Positions 55,768 through 64,000 of a stretch of 64,000 nucleotides of DNA are shown piece by piece. A model generated the notes under the pieces. That model was not told the origin of the DNA and made no database searches. It worked only from the letters and a program-made list of their open reading frames with translations. The position numbers were made by a program, and so were the translations under genes. Source of the DNA: Picochlorum sp. SENEW3 (taxonomy: Eukaryota); the NCBI GenBank assembly GCA_034226945.1, contig CP120455.1:496001-560000 (forward strand), read 5' to 3'. Within the stretch, counting starts at the first letter, position 1. Every line of letters starts with the position of its first letter.

Positions 55768-57732
55768 ATGCAAGCGGTCATACATCTTTTCCAAGGGCCT
55801 GCGTCCATATTTGGAACAGCGCTGTTAGGATTATGTGTATTATGTGCTTTATTGATGAATGAATTGACAAAAAAGAAGAAAGGAACGGTGTCAGTGGCTC
55901 TTCAAGCCAAGGAGGTTGAGGCACAGGAAGAAGAAGAAGACGGAAGGGATCAGTGTACGCTCGTGTTTGGAACGCAGACTGGTACGGCTGAGAAATTTGC
56001 AAAGACTCTTAAATCTCAATTAGAGAGTGCGTATGGGTCGACGACGGCGTTTCATGTGGTTGATGCGGAGCAGTATAAAGCTCAGGAGAGGCTGAGTAAG
56101 GAGACGCTGGTGATTTTTCTGGTAGCGACGTATGGCGATGGGGAGCCGACGGATAATGCTGTGGAGTTACATGATTACCTGGTGGAAGAGTCTGGTAAGG
56201 TGGATTATGCAGAGCTTCCGTTGGATGGTGTGTCTTTTGCTGTGTTTGCCTTGGGAAACAGGCAGTATGAGCATTTTTGTTCCATGGGAAAGACTGTGCA
56301 CAAGTGCATGACAGAGTTGGGGGCGACACCATTGTTAGCCATGGGAACTGGAGATGATGATGATGATATTGATAGAGATTTTGATGAGTGGTCTGCCAAG
56401 TTTTTTGAGGCATTGAAGGATTCAGAGTTGTTTGAGGCAGGGGTGACGGCACAGGTGACAACAGAGTCGGTTCCTGCGTATTCTATACAGAAGATTATGG
56501 ATGCGCCGGCGTCTTCTGTGAATAAAATTATAAATGGACGGGGAGATAATGTGCATTCGCCGTATTTGGCAGAGGTGACGTGTGTCAAAGAGTTGCATGG
56601 TGATGCATCAGATAGGTCTTGTGTACACGTGGAGGTTGATATATCTGGATCACAAACTGGATATGAGGCTGGCGATCATATTGGCGTGTATCCTGAAAAT
56701 TCAAAAGATGTTGTGAAGAAAGCTGCCGAGTTGTTGGGGAAGCCTCTCGATTTCTGTTTCAGTATGACCAAGGATGATAGATTTGAGGATTTGGGAGAGG
56801 TCTTCCTTCCAGGTGCCATGACCTTAGAGTTTGCATTGACTCATTTTGCCGATCTCTTGTCGTCTCCGAGTAAAGCTGCTTTAAAGATGTTGTCTGCGTT
56901 TGCGACGGATGCAAAGGAGCGGGAGCGGCTGGTGACGCTCTGTAGTGTGGATGGCGTGGCAGAATATGATGCATATGTGCATGTGCCAAAGAGGAGCCTT
57001 TTGGAGGTGTTGGAGGACTTTCCTTCCGCGAAGCCGACGATTGGTGCCTTCTTTGGCTCAATATCTCCTCGATTGCAGCCCAGGTATTACTCGATATCGT
57101 CTTCGCCAAAAGTGCATCCAACGTCAGTGCACATTACATGTGCTGTAGTTAGGGACCTCATGCCTACTGGAAGGGTTCACAATGGTGTCGCATCGACGTG
57201 GCTTGCACGTGTACGGGTGGGACAGAAGATTCCAGTGTTTTTGAGGAGTTCTTCCTTCAAATTACCTCAGAATAGGAATGCGCCCGTGATCATGGTTGGT
57301 CCGGGGACAGGTTTTGCTCCATTTAGAGGATTTATTCAGGATAGACGAGCAGATTCTACCTCAGCAGAGATGTTGTTGTACTTTGGGTGTCGGCATAGAG
57401 ACCATGATTTCATCTATGAAGAAGAGATGAAATCAGCTGTAGAAGATGGGACACTATCAAAGCTGGAATTAGCATTTAGTAGGGAGGGAAAAGCCAAGAA
57501 TTATGTGCAGCACCATATTGAAAAGGATGGAAGTCATCTGTGGTCACTGTTGAGCAATAAAAAGAACCCTGGGTACTTGTATATTTGCGGTGATGGAAAG
57601 CATATGGCAAAGGATGTGAATCGTGTGCTTCATCATATTGTGGAGAAGGAAGAAGGGTGCTCTGGAAATCAGGCGGAGGCGATTGTGAAAAAGATGGCCG
57701 ATCAGGGTCGGTATCTCAAGGACGTCTGGTGA
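55768..57732 (+). CDS. CPR: NADPH-cytochrome P450 reductase
   Basis: N-terminal TM, FGTQTGTAE, ATYGDGEPTDNA, LGNRQYEHF, LQPRYYSISSSP, GPGTGFAPFRGF, YFGCR, YICGD, RYLKDVW. Confidence 0.97.
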   Translation: MQAVIHLFQGPASIFGTALLGLCVLCALLMNELTKKKKGTVSVALQAKEVEAQEEEEDGRDQCTLVFGTQTGTAEKFAKTLKSQLESAYGSTTAFHVVDAEQYKAQERLSKETLVIFLVATYGDGEPTDNAVELHDYLVEESGKVDYAELPLDGVSFAVFALGNRQYEHFCSMGKTVHKCMTELGATPLLAMGTGDDDDDIDRDFDEWSAKFFEALKDSELFEAGVTAQVTTESVPAYSIQKIMDAPASSVNKIINGRGDNVHSPYLAEVTCVKELHGDASDRSCVHVEVDISGSQTGYEAGDHIGVYPENSKDVVKKAAELLGKPLDFCFSMTKDDRFEDLGEVFLPGAMTLEFALTHFADLLSSPSKAALKMLSAFATDAKERERLVTLCSVDGVAEYDAYVHVPKRSLLEVLEDFPSAKPTIGAFFGSISPRLQPRYYSISSSPKVHPTSVHITCAVVRDLMPTGRVHNGVASTWLARVRVGQKIPVFLRSSSFKLPQNRNAPVIMVGPGTGFAPFRGFIQDRRADSTSAEMLLYFGCRHRDHDFIYEEEMKSAVEDGTLSKLELAFSREGKAKNYVQHHIEKDGSHLWSLLSNKKNPGYLYICGDGKHMAKDVNRVLHHIVEKEEGCSGNQAEAIVKKMADQGRYLKDVW

Positions 57733-57852
57733 AGAGGCATTGTTGGAGCGTGTGTCATTGATTTTTTTAATTCATTTGATTTTATTTCGTACCCTTCTTC
57801 GAGTAAAAAGGTAGATACTGAAGTAGAATATAAAATTCCAGTAGGACTATTA

Positions 57853-58456
57853 TTATTCTTCCTCGTCGTCGCTATCATCCTGCGGCACACACTCTACACT
57901 AACATCCCACCTGCTGCCAGGAGCGCTAGAGGCCACATATTTGACAAATCTCATGAGTCCTTCATCACGCAAAACAATGCTGATGGCGTTAAAGGCTGCA
58001 GAGATATTCAGAACGCCAGACTCGTCATCCTGTGCTTGTCGATACACTTCTGCTGGGCCATCCTCTTCTTCATCTGCAAGCAGATATGCTTCAAACCCGC
58101 CGCACTCTCCATCAGCCCAGGACGATTCGTCCATGGATGCTTCATCAACAAAGGTCAACACAACATCGAGACGAGGATCTTTGGTCAAGATACCATAATG
58201 CGCGACTGTATAATCTAATCCTGGTCGAAATCGTCGTATTTCTCTACGGTTCACCCCATCCATGGTCAATGTAGTGAAGCTGCGGATCAGGTTGGCAAAC
58301 GGAACACTACATATAACCTTATCACAGAGCTCTCTCATTGTACTTCCTAACCGCCTATGCGTGGATTCCTGTGTTGATGAATCCCCAGTGAACTCTAGGT
58401 AACGTTGAGGTATGGAAGAGACGCTAAATAAGGCCCCAATCCCAACCCCTTCGTAC
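57853..58456 (-). CDS. OGFOD1: C-terminal (Ofd1_CTDD-like) part of prolyl 3-hydroxylase OGFOD1/Tpa1; catalytic N-terminal domain not found in window (truncated or distant exon)
   Basis: QRYL, EIRRFRPGLDYTVA, GGFEAYL, AEVY, NAISIVLRDEGLMRFVKYVASSAPGSRWD; frame open up to a possible acceptor ttttcacag at 58457. Confidence 0.75.
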
Positions 58457-58518: not shown

Positions 58519-58661
58519 ATGCAAAGCGCAGTGAGAGGGTCGGCCCTTATCAGATGTTCTGGTTTGAAAAGCCTCCCTGCAGGGACCAGCTGGTGGCCCT
58601 CCGGCGCACAGAGAGGCATCGTATTCCTTATCGTAGTACTTCAGGGTGTGATAGGTATATT

Positions 58662-58701
<40 letters not shown>

Positions 58702-59058
58702 AATACATCGTTGGCTGCAATGAGTCTCATATCTCGAGCCTATCTAAGGTCTTGGAAATTTCGTCGTCAAACCAGCATTCACAGTCTAGACAATTTAATT
58801 CATCCCATTCGGAATAAAAAGTTCTCATGGAAGGAGATATTCGATAATTTAACGAGCACAGGTCACAAGTATTGCACCCTTTACCGAGACAATTGGTCAT
58901 GCTCAGGAACTGACTACATGAAGGTGTTAAACGCAACAAAGAAATACAACAGTCAAAAAAGAGTACAGCATCTACCAAGAAATTCCTATATTTTTGCTGA
59001 GGGAAATTCGTTACTGGCCCAACTGATCTTCACATTGATCTGTGAGAGCAGAGGCTGA
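58519..59058 (+). pseudogene. Probable gene fragment: type II membrane anchor + GDS/GNS (SGNH/PC-esterase-like) motif, ending just after the motif
   Basis: TM GIVFLIVVLQGVIGIFIY; YIFAEGNSLLAQLIFTLICE then stop; contains a microsatellite. Confidence 0.35.
58655..58700. repeat. Compound (TA)n(GA)n microsatellite
   Basis: tatatttatatatatatatatatatatagagagagagagagagag. Confidence 0.9.
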
Positions 59059-59715: not shown

Positions 59716-60918
59716 TTATTGGCCTCTTGATGAGCATGCGTCCTGAATGATGGCCAGGCCCTGTTCTGCAGGTTCTTGCAGGTCTGGATTACTGCAGTAG
59801 AGAGTCCATGCAGGAGATTCATTCCCATGAGATTCGCCGCAATGTGTCATAATAATGACGTTGGAGTGACAGAGATCAGTTTGCTGCATGGCTGATGCAA
59901 TCCTCTCCTCAGGAGTGCTGGCCTGGGTACCGTCCTCAACAGAACAACAAGGTGATACAGCGTTGTAGTGACACAGCATGGTCGACACTGAATGTCGTTG
60001 GGCGTCTGCTACTTGCTTCATGGTATGATAGGATGCGTTTGACGACATGACAAGGGTAGAGTGAGCTTTGCGGAGACCTTGGATTGGACGTGGCCATGGT
60101 GTGTTGTCCTGTGGTGATGCCATGGCTTGACTCAGCAGTTTGGACAAGTTCACCTTGGATATGTGCTTGTCTGGGCTGTATGATCGATGGAGTGGATTTT
60201 GAGATGACTTATAGGTGTATGGAACGACCACGGATCGAGGGAATTGGCGTATGGAGTGCAACAGCACAGAGTGGAGCTCATCAGTAACGGGAATGTGAGC
60301 TCCACCCTTCCTGTGTGACACCTTATCGTGCTGGATCAGAATGAGAGCCTTGTCCGATGAGAGCACAAGATGGTTCTGACCTGGAGATTCCTTGTCAACA
60401 CTATCAATGATGGACATTGTGGCCCAATCACCTCGTAGCGGTGGCTGCATGGTGTACAAACACAGGGCGAACCATTGCCAGTACTCGGTGGTGTTTGCTG
60501 GGTCGCTGTCGATCCTGCGTTTGATGGCATCCCTGCGACAGCATATCTCTTGGAATGTTTTGAAGGCTTTGCCTTGGATGTTGTGGGCTGTTTCCTGGGT
60601 GGCTTGGATGCGTAACTCGTTGGCTTCCTGTCTCCACTTGTCTGTGGTGGGGTGATGGAGTCCAAGCTCCTTTCTCAGGACGGAAACCACGGGAAGCATC
60701 ATGGACGACAAGACAGATATATTGGTATACGTTTGTTTCATGTAGCGGTATATATCTTCGACCTTGGGTATGAGCCACAAGGAGTATTGTTGGACCTTGG
60801 CAGCATTAATCTTGGACCGTTTCTTGAGGGCATGCATGACTCTGTAGAGCGTTTCCAATTTGGTTCTGTACGATCGCACATCCCAAGGATTGTCGACATA
60901 AAGTTGTGTTGTTCTCAT
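59716..60918 (-). CDS. Tyrosine recombinase/integrase, intronless, resembling virophage/Polinton-like-virus-type YR
   Basis: Catalytic residues in correct order and spacing: LCLYTMQPPL-R162-GDW, HD-K199-VSHRKG, Q280-GL-R283-KAHST, VADAQR-H309-S, MLCH-Y318; ~140-aa helical N-terminal core-binding region. Confidence 0.85.
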   Translation of the reverse strand: MRTTQLYVDNPWDVRSYRTKLETLYRVMHALKKRSKINAAKVQQYSLWLIPKVEDIYRYMKQTYTNISVLSSMMLPVVSVLRKELGLHHPTTDKWRQEANELRIQATQETAHNIQGKAFKTFQEICCRRDAIKRRIDSDPANTTEYWQWFALCLYTMQPPLRGDWATMSIIDSVDKESPGQNHLVLSSDKALILIQHDKVSHRKGGAHIPVTDELHSVLLHSIRQFPRSVVVPYTYKSSQNPLHRSYSPDKHISKVNLSKLLSQAMASPQDNTPWPRPIQGLRKAHSTLVMSSNASYHTMKQVADAQRHSVSTMLCHYNAVSPCCSVEDGTQASTPEERIASAMQQTDLCHSNVIIMTHCGESHGNESPAWTLYCSNPDLQEPAEQGLAIIQDACSSRGQ

Positions 60919-61036
60919 ACATAGGGGAAGAGATAAAAATTTTGGAAATTTTACGCACGGGATAACTCAATTGACGGTTCATGTTTGGCCAGGCTTCCTT
61001 GGTTGCAGTTGGGAGGAATACCGTTGTATTTGTCAA

Positions 61037-61066
61037 AGTAACGTTAGAGAGGCCACTAACGTTACT
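61037..61066. repeat. Perfect 11-bp inverted repeat with 8-bp asymmetric spacer (loxP/dif-like geometry), candidate recombination site
   Basis: AGTAACGTTAG-AGAGGCCA-CTAACGTTACT, ~120 bp upstream of the YR start codon. Confidence 0.7.
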
Positions 61067-61146
61067 ATGTCGACCTTGAGTGGTGACTATCAGTTATCCA
61101 GTGAAGAGGCATGGAAGTATGTTGTCCAAAAAGTCTCAAGTACTAT

Positions 61147-61400
61147 TGTGGAACACCGGAACAGTAGTGGAACAGTTGTGGAACAGTTGTGGAACAGTTG
61201 TATATTTCCCCCTTGGTCTTCAAGTTTCTTTTTTACGTGTAAGCGAGGCATCTATAGGGTATAATTGAAAGAATGTCATAAATGGAACAGTGGAACAGTT
61301 GTTTTCAGGGTTTTTTGCCTATGGGCTTGAGTCATGCAAGACATCCAAAATCTCCCAGAACAAAAAAGTTTGAGAGGTGTTCCACTGTTCCGCTGTTCCA
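61147..61400. repeat. Iteron-like module A: GGAACA x7 forward, TGTTCC x3 reverse
   Basis: GGAACA at 61150, 61158, 61169, 61180, 61191, 61284, 61292; TGTTCC at 61378, 61386, 61394; 80-bp spacer between the inverted clusters. Confidence 0.9.
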
Positions 61401-61874
61401 CCCCGGTTGCCAACCACCCTGAGGTGTGCAAGTAGTCTACCGCTATTAGCCCTTGGTGGATATCTTTTTACAAGTTGAATGCTTTCAATAGTACTCAATG
61501 ACCACTTAATAATCCATTTCCTCTCGAGCGACAGTCGGTGTAGGAAAAAGCATACGAGTGGTGTAACGGTACCGTTGGCGGCTGATCTGCGTACTGCCAA
61601 GTAGAAGTATCACTGGGCCTCGATCTTTATATTCTAAGCATATCACATATATTTACGTGCTTTGCCATAGGGTGATGGCTGCTGGCTGCATATGGAGGTA
61701 ACAAAAAGGCCGACCACAATGGCGTTGACCAGCAACAACGGCAGAGTTCAACTTGATGATATTTCCTGCAGAGGACTGAAGCTCCGTGAAAAGCGGTTTC
61801 AAGGGTTCAATTTCATCATCATAAAACTATCAATAGCGCGTCGGCTATCAGAAACATCGCCGCAGAGGCACAAC

Positions 61875-62213
61875 GTAACTAAAGTAACTAAAGTAACTCT
61901 GTTCTTCTACTGCCTGTTTCCCTGTTGACTGAGGCATGTGGTAGCAACATGTTTCTGAGCTCTAGTCCTGTAGAGTTACTTTAGTTACTTTGTTTTAGAG
62001 TTCAGTAGAAAATGATTGAAAAACATGTTGGACTGTAGTTTCGGACACCCATACCAGAGGCCAGTCACAGACAATGCAAAAACAAAGTAACTGAAGTAAC
62101 TAAAGTAACTCTGCATCATTGGAGTGTAAGCCATCGCATTCCAGTAAATATATGGACTCGAAGACAAAACTTGAAGATATTCGAAGTAACCCCTAAAGTA
62201 ACTTCAAGTAACT
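61875..62213. repeat. Iteron-like module B: GTAAC(T) x9 forward, AGTTAC x2 reverse, with a 20-bp perfect inverted repeat
   Basis: GTAAC at 61875, 61884, 61893, 62087, 62096, 62105, 62186, 62198, 62208; AGTTAC at 61974, 61983; AAAGTAACTAAAGTAACTCT (61881-61900) pairs with 61972-61991. Confidence 0.9.
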
Positions 62214-62414: not shown

Positions 62415-62804
62415 AGTAGAAATTTGGTGGAATCAGTAAAAGTGGTAAGAGAGTTGATGTGATAGCTGGGCACTTCTACCATTTTTACCATTTCTACCAG
62501 TTTTTTTTCAAAAAGTTTTTTTTTCAGGGATATATATGTTTATATATAACATATAAATGTAGGGACTTTTCCCCCCAAAAGTGGTAAAAGTGGTAGGACT
62601 GAGGCTAACAGGTCACAACAACTGGAACAGCCTGCCTGACACATGTATGTTGCTGGAGTGATAGTTCGGCGATCCATTTTCAAATCTGGTAGCACTCTCA
62701 AAGGAAAAGTCTTTGAAAATTTGATAGAATGCATTGGGTGGCACTCGACTCGAACAGCACATAAAAATCATCCATACCAACAAAATGGTAGGCAAAAGTG
62801 GTAG
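62415..62804. repeat. Iteron-like module C: TACCA x3 facing TGGTA x2 across an AT-rich spacer, plus outlying TGGTA copies
   Basis: TACCA at 62477, 62486, 62495; TGGTA at 62582, 62591, also 62443, 62687, 62786, 62799; 82-bp spacer with T tracts and TATATGTT/AACATATA hairpin. Confidence 0.88.
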
Positions 62805-62900: not shown

Positions 62901-64000
62901 TTACACATACCATATAGAATCTTTCATAGCTTTCGTCTTGGCTGCTTGTTGTTGTCTGGCCTTGGATGCTTTGATGTGACTACTACCGTTGTTCCAGGTT
63001 GGCTTGACAGGGCCTGTAGATCGAGCACGCTTTCTCTTCGTAGCGTTAGACATATTCTCGTGTTTTCTTGGCGTTAGCATTGGTTGAAACACGTGTACAT
63101 GCTCAGAGTGCACTGTCCTCCACACCTGATGGCCAACTCCACTCTCAAACCATTCAACCAAGGCATCTGCATGATATATGATGCAATTGTATTGTCAATT
63201 GATGTATTGATGTGGTCCATTACTGTTCATGTAGTCTATTTAATATGATATCACGCACCAGATACACGGAACCCCAGTTGTCTGTACGTTTCCAAGTGAT
63301 TGTACTGATGATCCTGCAATGCTACTGCTACATGTGCAATCTCACATGGGACCAAACAGAGGAAAGGGTCATCGCGATGTACCAGTGACCTCCATTCGCC
63401 ATAATGTTGTTTCGTCGCGTGTTCGCTGTCATTGTTGTATTTGAGACTCGCAGCAGCAATGGAAATCTTAGCTGCTGAATTCCCATTCTCAGCTCCTCCT
63501 CCTGCATCATCTGCATTCCACCCCATCAACGAGACTTCCCCATCATCTGTGGCCCCTTCAATATCTAGAATGGAATCTTGGGAATCTTCTACCGCCAGTG
63601 CAAGGCTAGATGGAGCCAAGGATGATGATGGTGGTGGCACTTTCTTGTCTTCTCCAACTATTTGCACATCCAATTCAGCTGCATCAGATGCAACGTGCTC
63701 CTCTACCGTTGTGCCATTTCCATCCGTAGCGTCCTTGTCGACCTGATCACAAACCTGATTGGTTGGTACATCGGTATCGTCCTTGTCCGCAAGAACGTCA
63801 TTCAACACATCACTGAGGTGTGCTTGAAAAGACTCCTTCAAACCTGGGGAGCCCACAATCTCCACAACCTCTGCAGCAAAGAAAACTCTTTCAGATGCAT
63901 CCATGACAAGTATCACAATGCACCAAAAGGCACGCACCATGCACTTGACCGCTCCTGTTCTGTCTGAGAGCTTTGACCAACAGCACATACTGCCCACCTT
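62901..64000 (-). CDS. Spliced hypothetical gene (5' end outside window), weak resemblance to Crypton/NDC10-II tyrosine-recombinase region; introns 63871-63937 and 63167-63258
   Basis: gtgcgt...tgcag introns restore one frame (..GQVH|EVVEIV...FRVS|DALVEWF..); motif HATKQHYGEWRSLVHRDDPFLC resembles Crypton KTNQ..RH.D..LC. Confidence 0.45.

What the first reader, a model, noticed from the sequence alone, without database searches (positions are those of the whole stretch)
61037..61066. loxP/dif-shaped site directly upstream of the recombinase
SEEN: perfect 11-bp arms AGTAACGTTAG / CTAACGTTACT flank an asymmetric 8-bp spacer AGAGGCCA, and each arm contains the palindrome TAACGTTA. The spacer octamer recurs at 62056-62063 inside module B, and the left arm context CAAAGTAAC matches the module B repeat. 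KNOWN: YR core sites are 11-13-bp inverted arms around a 6-8-bp spacer. INFERENCE: this is the YR's att or resolution site, or an autoregulatory operator.
Basis: partly seen in the sequence, partly recalled or inferred. Interest (0 to 1): 0.72.

Follow-up and report, generated by a model that had tools for sequence, protein, structure and literature searches.

The report
Internal repeat of algal recombinase transposon
The mirror-image DNA site is real but is probably not where the recombinase cuts; it lies inside a small, apparently undescribed jumping element of a green alga whose true ends are kilobases away and which carries different passenger genes in different copies.

Summary
The 30-bp site is exactly as described (11-bp arms, 8-bp spacer), 119 bp upstream of an intact Cre-fold tyrosine recombinase (YR). 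It is not the att site. The YR lies in a 5,994-bp mobile element whose real ends are window 58407 (GAGGTATGG…) and C3:560400 (…CTCTGTATGG), flanked by a 7-bp target duplication; a paralogous empty site confirms this. The own genome holds 25 right-end matches. Seven of 14 paired ends have exact 7-bp duplications, all different in sequence. The full inverted repeat occurs only in one close subfamily (3 of 7 YR loci with a 5' end; 0 of 5 metagenome loci). Only the right arm recurs in five subfamilies. The arms match the element's origin-like iteron motif, not its ends. Best reading: a replicase-type binding motif at the YR promoter/origin border, symmetrical in one lineage, regulatory or vestigial. 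The notable result is the element family itself: YR, D5-type primase-helicase, swappable iteron modules, variable cargo and 213-bp non-autonomous copies, with variable duplications unusual for a YR. Unexplained: this copy's duplication, TAACGTT, equals the arm core.

The parts
58400..58406 (+). Left copy of the 7-bp target site duplication TAACGTT, inside a truncated copy of a host Ofd1-type gene. The right copy is at G000:C3:560401-560407, outside the window.
   Evidence: The intact paralogue at C3:563311 has one TAACGTT and no element.
58407..58437 (+). Left end of the element: GAGGTATGG, then an AAGAG-type repeat and a 16-bp palindrome (degenerate in this copy). The right end is C3:560400 (window equivalent 64400); element length 5,994 bp.
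58519..59044 (+). Truncated cargo-type ORF (hydrophobic stretch followed by a (TA)n(GA)n run). This slot holds a different gene in each copy.
59716..60918 (-). Tyrosine recombinase, 400 aa, open frame; R162, K199, R283, H309, Y318 invariant in 15 close homologs
60935..60958 (-). Conserved AT-rich block just upstream of the YR start, present in 8 of 9 upstream regions compared; candidate core promoter
61034..61047 (+). Left arm of the site (CAAAGTAAC GTTAG); iteron-B-like; found only in the close subfamily
61048..61055 (+). 8-bp spacer AGAGGCCA. A near match is kept in the C2/C6:741k subfamily; the spacer is absent in L113.
61056..61069 (+). Right arm (CTAAC GTTACTATG). Its GTTAC core recurs in the same orientation in five subfamilies, 126-211 bp from the YR start in the four that keep a YR.
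61148..61401 (.). Module A: GTGGAACA iterons, direct then inverted; origin-like
61870..62212 (.). Module B: AAGTAAC iterons in both orientations. The same motif lies between the YR and a divergent ORF in L114.
62441..62803 (.). Module C: AGTGGTA-type iterons in both orientations
63251..64000 (-). ORF3, a conserved gene of unknown function, probably spliced; its first exon runs past the window (C3:559936-560154)

Best explanation
The site is an internal cis-element of a YR-mobilised element, not its recombination site. SHOWN: the element runs from window 58407 to C3:560400 with a 7-bp duplication. The site lies between the YR 5' region and three iteron modules. Its arms match the module B iteron. 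Only the right arm is shared across subfamilies. INFERRED: the right arm is the YR-proximal iteron of an ancestral B-type replication origin, bound by the element's primase-helicase. In this subfamily it exists as an inverted pair (gained by inverted duplication, or kept while others decayed). It either lets the replicase bind beside the YR promoter and tie excision to replication, or is a vestige. INFERRED for the family: the YR acts at the two termini through a circular intermediate, the primase-helicase (in trans for this copy, which lacks it) amplifies the circle from the iterons, and integration at near-random targets leaves a 7-bp duplication.
For: Ends, duplication and empty site. A weight matrix of 12 iterons from L114/L115 scores the left arm above all 116,780 host positions and the right arm above all but 7; matrices of the real ends score the site at background (26-48% of random host windows do as well). 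Full repeat in 3 of 7 own-genome YR loci with a 5' end and 0 of 5 metagenome/MAG loci with upstream DNA; right arm in five subfamilies. In C2 the modules are followed by a D5_N-bearing ORF. At 2 of 14 right junctions the extra bases before the duplication read like the start of the left end, as a circle joint would give.
Against: No binding was tested. The iteron matrix was seeded on a motif I had already seen to resemble the arm, so its score is partly circular. The site is no better conserved than its surroundings (47% of 30-bp windows differ as little between the window and C6:750k), and both single changes in the sister copies break the symmetry. This copy's duplication equals the arm core (chance about 0.001 per target), which this reading does not explain. 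The spacer region shares 8 nt with the right end (83 of 2000 random 36-mers do as well). No circle joint appeared in the 15 joints listed of 19 or in the assembly. The genome also holds DDE and KDZ transposases that could act in trans.
Confidence: 0.52

Rival explanations
1. YR autoregulatory operator or accessory site: the YR binds here and represses its own promoter, or the site helps assemble the excision complex.
For: It lies 119-148 bp upstream of the YR start with the geometry typical of YR sites (quotes 11-13 bp arms, 6-8 bp spacer). AGAGGCC in the centre occurs in the terminal repeats, and a near match is kept in the C2 subfamily.
Against: End-derived matrices do not pick out the site. 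The part that resembles the ends is the spacer, not the arms. The symmetry is missing in four subfamilies with 60-80% identical YRs.
Confidence: 0.17
2. Functionless lineage-specific duplication or insertion footprint: TAACGTTA is a palindrome, so a direct duplication around a 10-11-bp insert looks like an inverted repeat.
For: L113 and C4:975413 have a single TAACGTT here and the window's subfamily is 13-15 bp longer than L113 at this place. The family makes 7-bp duplications. There is no excess conservation.
Against: The symmetry extends beyond the palindrome to 13 of 14 bp. The insert begins and ends like neither terminus. A near match to the spacer is present in the diverged C2 subfamily.
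Confidence: 0.2
3. True att or resolution site: a lox-like site used by the YR, for example to resolve dimers of the replicating circle.
For: Classical shape, a Cre-like YR fold, and a probably replicating element that could need dimer resolution. This copy's target equals the arm core.
Against: Not at a junction. Absent from the empty site, from all 213-bp copies and from the C2 copy, which has both ends and a replicase ORF. No joint at the site among those listed for four runs. Only one homology break lies near it (C4:975k).
Confidence: 0.08

Closest known systems
loxP/Cre and dif/XerCD core sites
   Same: 11-bp inverted arms around an 8-bp asymmetric spacer; the adjacent YR's best structural matches are Cre
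   Different: Arms are not conserved across homologs, there is no partner site, and the element's junctions lie elsewhere
Crypton DNA transposons, especially CryptonS (PMC3212892; PMC13565253)
   Same: Eukaryotic YR DNA transposon; TATGG at both termini, as here (GTATGG at both ends)
   Different: In CryptonS one TATGG is regarded as the target; here the empty site lacks it and a separate, variable 7-bp duplication flanks the element. This element also has subterminal inverted repeats, iteron modules, a primase-helicase and cargo. Structural neighbours of the YR are giant-virus and virophage proteins. Kinship to CryptonS YRs was not tested.
YR plus primase-helicase end modules of Polinton-like viruses and Sputnik-type virophages (PMC11296320; PMC12220804; PMC2579912)
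   Same: YR next to a D5-type replicase; swappable replicases; a few YR PLVs have 7-23 bp duplications, sometimes offset by 1-3 bp
   Different: 6-10 kb, no capsid or packaging gene found, no long terminal repeats (at least 100 bp in that survey), 213-bp non-autonomous derivatives, host-like cargo
Starships (fungal YR cargo elements; seen as search listing, abstract starts and passages of 10.64898/2026.09.21.753150 and PMC13465315)
   Same: YR-mobilised cargo-carrying eukaryotic element with asymmetric ends
   Different: Far smaller, has its own replicase, no DUF3435 hit, duplications do not share a target motif

Membership tests
YR core recombination site (lox/dif type) | 11-13 bp inverted arms around a 6-8 bp spacer | tested here: met
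YR core recombination site (lox/dif type) | Located at element junctions or shared with the empty site | tested here: not met
   Junctions are 2.6 kb and 3.3 kb away; ends do not match the site
YR core recombination site (lox/dif type) | Both arms conserved beside homologous YR genes | tested here: not met
   Full repeat in 1 of 5 subfamilies
YR core recombination site (lox/dif type) | Bound and cleaved by the YR | not testable with these tools
   Needs EMSA or a recombination assay
Tyrosine recombinase (protein) | Catalytic R-K-(H)xxR-H-Y set and YR fold | tested here: met
   R162, K199, R283, H309, Y318 invariant; profile hits PDB integrase 3nkh E 8e-5; model pLDDT 96 matches Cre, E 1.7e-5, TM 0.57. 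The first histidine of HxxR is Q or H in homologs; no Pfam hit.
Crypton (CryptonS) | YR with TATGG termini | tested here: met
   GTATGG at both ends; definition
Crypton (CryptonS) | Terminal direct repeat reflects target microhomology; no true target duplication; no terminal inverted repeats | tested here: not met
   Empty site lacks TATGG; 7 of 14 pairs have exact, differing 7-bp duplications; subterminal inverted repeats present
Crypton (CryptonS) | YR belongs to the CryptonS clade | not tested
   No CryptonS sequence was at hand
Polinton-like virus | Jelly-roll capsid and packaging ATPase genes | tested here: inconclusive
   No PF04665 or PF21738 match in the own genome, but the PF21738 control rang nowhere and divergent capsids are missed; the two fully bracketed YR copies show no large unexplained ORF
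Polinton-like virus | YR linked to a D5-type primase-helicase | tested here: met
   D5_N over cut-off in C2, weaker in C6:739k; absent from the window's copy
Replication-origin iteron | Matches the repeated motif of the element's origin-like modules | tested here: met
   with partial circularity
Replication-origin iteron | Bound by the replicase and needed for replication | not testable with these tools
   Needs binding and replication assays

The most novel reading that the evidence does not exclude
A capsid-less, self-replicating eukaryotic transposon class. A giant-virus-type tyrosine recombinase integrates a circle at near-random targets and makes true 7-bp duplications, and each copy ships a different cell-surface-modifying gene. 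The flagged site would be a dimeric replicase operator that couples amplification to YR expression, and TAACGTT-type sequence may also bias target choice.
Probability: 0.3. Interest if true: 0.8.

Novelty: new variant of a known kind. Interest (0 to 1): 0.55.

Why it matters
The site alone is a minor feature. The element matters because tyrosine recombinases are said not to create target duplications (PMC12220804, PMC13465315), yet three 213-bp copies identical to within one terminal base sit between different exact 7-bp duplications. With defined 30-bp ends, a minimal 213-bp substrate and an intact 400-aa enzyme, that mechanism is directly testable. It could also give an integration tool for an industrial microalga, and it offers a route by which small algae reshuffle methyltransferase and surface-protein genes.

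Tried and rejected
Pfam found nothing for the YR or any YR family for 30 remote homologs. The first structure model (15 sequences, pLDDT 58) gave only generic helical matches and was replaced by the 105-sequence model. IMG/VR scans found no YR relative, no site and no right end. The scan with alignment A2 could not run. No right-end/left-end joint exists in the assembly, and none was among the 15 of 19 joints listed for four contig sets; contigs drop rare forms, so this is no evidence against circles. One search listed only 40 of 1,018 variant rows and 12 of 232 gap rows, so the lack of a listed change inside the site is not used. I rejected homology-dependent integration at a carried 7-mer because near-identical 213-bp copies have different duplications. 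ESM Atlas gave no hit for ORF3 and only unnamed viral clusters plus a 0.88 D5_N lead for the replicase N-terminus. Three look-ups of earlier findings were empty. Supplements of the papers were not read; the CryptonS terminus tables may bear on the comparison.

Full report
Observation. The sequence is as stated: AGTAACGTTAG-AGAGGCCA-CTAACGTTACT at 61037-61066, unique in the window, extendable to 14-bp arms with one mismatch. Its shape is not very rare: 4 of 60 simulated windows had such a repeat, and 3 others occur in 447 kb of fetched genome. Folded as a single strand it gives the expected hairpin (z -4.9), while the matching regions of L113 and C2 do not.

Setting. The window is from a compact eukaryotic alga; named relatives of its YR and ORF3 are Picochlorum proteins. 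The ORF at 59716-60918 (minus strand, 400 aa) has no Pfam match but is a tyrosine recombinase. R162, K199, R283, H309 and Y318 are invariant in 15 close homologs. A 105-sequence profile hits PDB integrases (3nkh E 8e-5, XerC-like 4a8e E 7e-4). The model (pLDDT 96) matches Cre best in the PDB and giant-virus proteins best in BFVD. The own genome gives 12 matches, three of them overlapping at one locus.

The real ends. Homology among copies stops at C3:560400, after …GGCCACTTCTCTGTATGG. The other end is window 58407, GAGGTATGGAAGAG…. TAACGTT flanks both, and an intact paralogue of the interrupted Ofd1-type gene at C3:563311 has a single TAACGTT, so this is a true 7-bp duplication. Pattern searches gave 25 right-end matches at up to 2 mismatches (control 0) and 34 left-end matches at up to 3 mismatches (control 12), of which I took the 19 with up to 2 mismatches plus this copy. 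Of 14 left/right pairs matched by position, 7 have exact 7-bp duplications, all different; 1 has one mismatch; 2 have the duplication after 2-3 extra bases that read like the start of the left end; 4 have none. Eleven are 213-bp non-autonomous copies, four of them identical over 212-213 bp. In run X4, from another study, three contigs leave the right end into flanks that agree poorly with each other.

Anatomy of the family. The C2 copy (9,858 bp) reads: left end, cargo, YR, module A, a replicase ORF with a D5_N domain interrupted by one in-frame stop, ORF3, right end. I read its N-terminus as a TVpol-type polymerase from recalled motifs; no tool confirmed that (one search is a lead only). In L114 the YR is followed by module-B-type iterons and an unrelated ORF with primase-like motifs (recalled; no convincing Pfam hit). 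The window's copy has modules A, B and C but no replicase. That these modules are origins is inferred from their layout and from iteron origins beside D5/P4-type primases (recalled). The slot beyond 59045 differs in all 8 copies compared; Pfam calls three of them an fn3 protein (weak), a PAN/proline-repeat protein and a methyltransferase, a fourth another methyltransferase, and one had no match.

Is the site conserved? Seven own-genome YR loci keep the 5' end. Three carry the site (window; C6:750077 and C6:588149, each with one change that breaks symmetry). Two (C2, C6:741k) keep AGAGAGGCAAC and CGTTAC but have no left arm. Two have unrelated DNA beyond 60960. Of 7 metagenome/MAG loci, one lacks the 5' end, one (L117) has the upstream region replaced, and none of the other five has the repeat; L115, L116 and L118 are nearly the same sequence. 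L113 keeps the right arm exactly, lacks the spacer and has at most a decayed left arm. A GTTAC core in the right arm's orientation recurs in five subfamilies, 126-211 bp from the YR start; C4:975k, which lacks a YR, has it just before module A. Between the window and C6:750k the site is no better kept than its surroundings.

What does it resemble? An iteron matrix from L114/L115 scores the left arm above all 116,780 host positions and the right arm above all but 7; a matrix from the window's own module B gives 3 and 43. Three matrices from the real ends score the site at background. The test is partly circular because the seed motif was chosen after seeing the likeness.

Against my reading. 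This copy's duplication equals the palindromic core of both arms. A host 7-mer falls among the site's 36 7-mers with probability 0.00125, and no other duplication is the same, the nearest flank being TAACGCC. I cannot explain this. The centre of the site shares 8 nt with the right end (83 of 2000 by chance). No circular form was seen. That the YR is the mobiliser is inferred from association; DDE and KDZ transposases exist nearby.

Mechanism. Shown: ends, duplication, empty site, YR fold and residues, subfamily-limited symmetry, iteron likeness. Inferred: replicase binding at the site, circle formation, and joining of element ends to a target cut with a 7-nt stagger (or repair of mismatched overlaps toward the target strand), which would give the duplication.

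Comparison. CryptonS elements share TATGG termini (PMC3212892, section 7 and passages; PMC13565253, passages), but there one copy is regarded as the target, and Cryptons lack true duplications (PMC13465315, passages; PMC9977147, passages). PLV end modules pair a YR with a primase-helicase (PMC11296320, passages; PMC2579912, passages), and 10 of 232 YR PLVs in one cluster had putative duplications, described as 7-23 bp and often offset (PMC12220804, passages). Phaeovirus YRs use a 2-bp core (PMC13236599, passages). A Picochlorum genome paper has no occurrence of 'recombinase' or 'integrase' in its main text (PMC11092101, passages). Eight searches listed no description of this family; Repbase and subscription journals were not searchable, so novelty is not proven.

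Verdict. The element family is the part worth following up.

Noticed in passing
window 58657-58698; C6:665633, C6:761212, C4:1172936: Several cargo-type ORFs carry a (TA)n(GA)n run in coding sequence right after a hydrophobic N-terminal stretch (translated as YIYIYRER-like). Slippage there could switch surface-modifying genes on and off.
   Followed up: partly
G000:C2:1165926, C4:1171237, C6:230516, C6:748176 and others: An AT-rich palindrome lies between the cargo 3' end and the YR 3' end in most copies but is missing in the window's copy. It recalls hairpin polyadenylation signals of giant viruses and virophages (recalled, untested).
   Followed up: partly
G000:C3:562390-563319 versus window 57491-58407: About 0.9 kb of host DNA (3' end of the cytochrome P450 reductase gene and 3' part of the Ofd1-type gene) is duplicated. 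The element sits in the truncated copy, 8 bp before a 2-kb unrelated segment (C3:560416-562389) that has a 73-bp inverted repeat.
   Followed up: partly
G000:C6 about 570-780 kb and C4 about 970-1,020 kb and 1,155-1,185 kb: Repeat-dense regions with these ends, retroelement-like ORFs, PIF1 helicase, KDZ and SWIM-type ORFs, and many methyltransferase and glycosyltransferase genes; resembles the outlier chromosomes of Mamiellales (recalled).
   Followed up: no
window 60935-60958: A block reading AAAATTTCCAAAATTTTT on the YR sense strand is better conserved across distant homologs than the flagged site and is itself a short inverted repeat; a stronger candidate for the YR promoter or operator.
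   Followed up: partly
G000:C6:618529-618581: A 53-bp mini-element made only of the two ends fused at their palindromes, with a 7-bp duplication bearing one mismatch.
   Followed up: partly
G000:C6:645576 and 646099: A right end and a left end on opposite strands share the same 7-bp flank, which suggests an inversion made at element ends.
   Followed up: no
G000:C3:564956-566050 and 578811-579896: Two 80% identical copies of a ~200-aa ORF with repeated W-x-W motifs, outside the element.
   Followed up: no
L118 (JAAEPE010000760.1): A 1.8-kb contig filed in a Myxococcales MAG matches L115/L116 upstream of the YR; probably algal contamination of the bin.
   Followed up: partly
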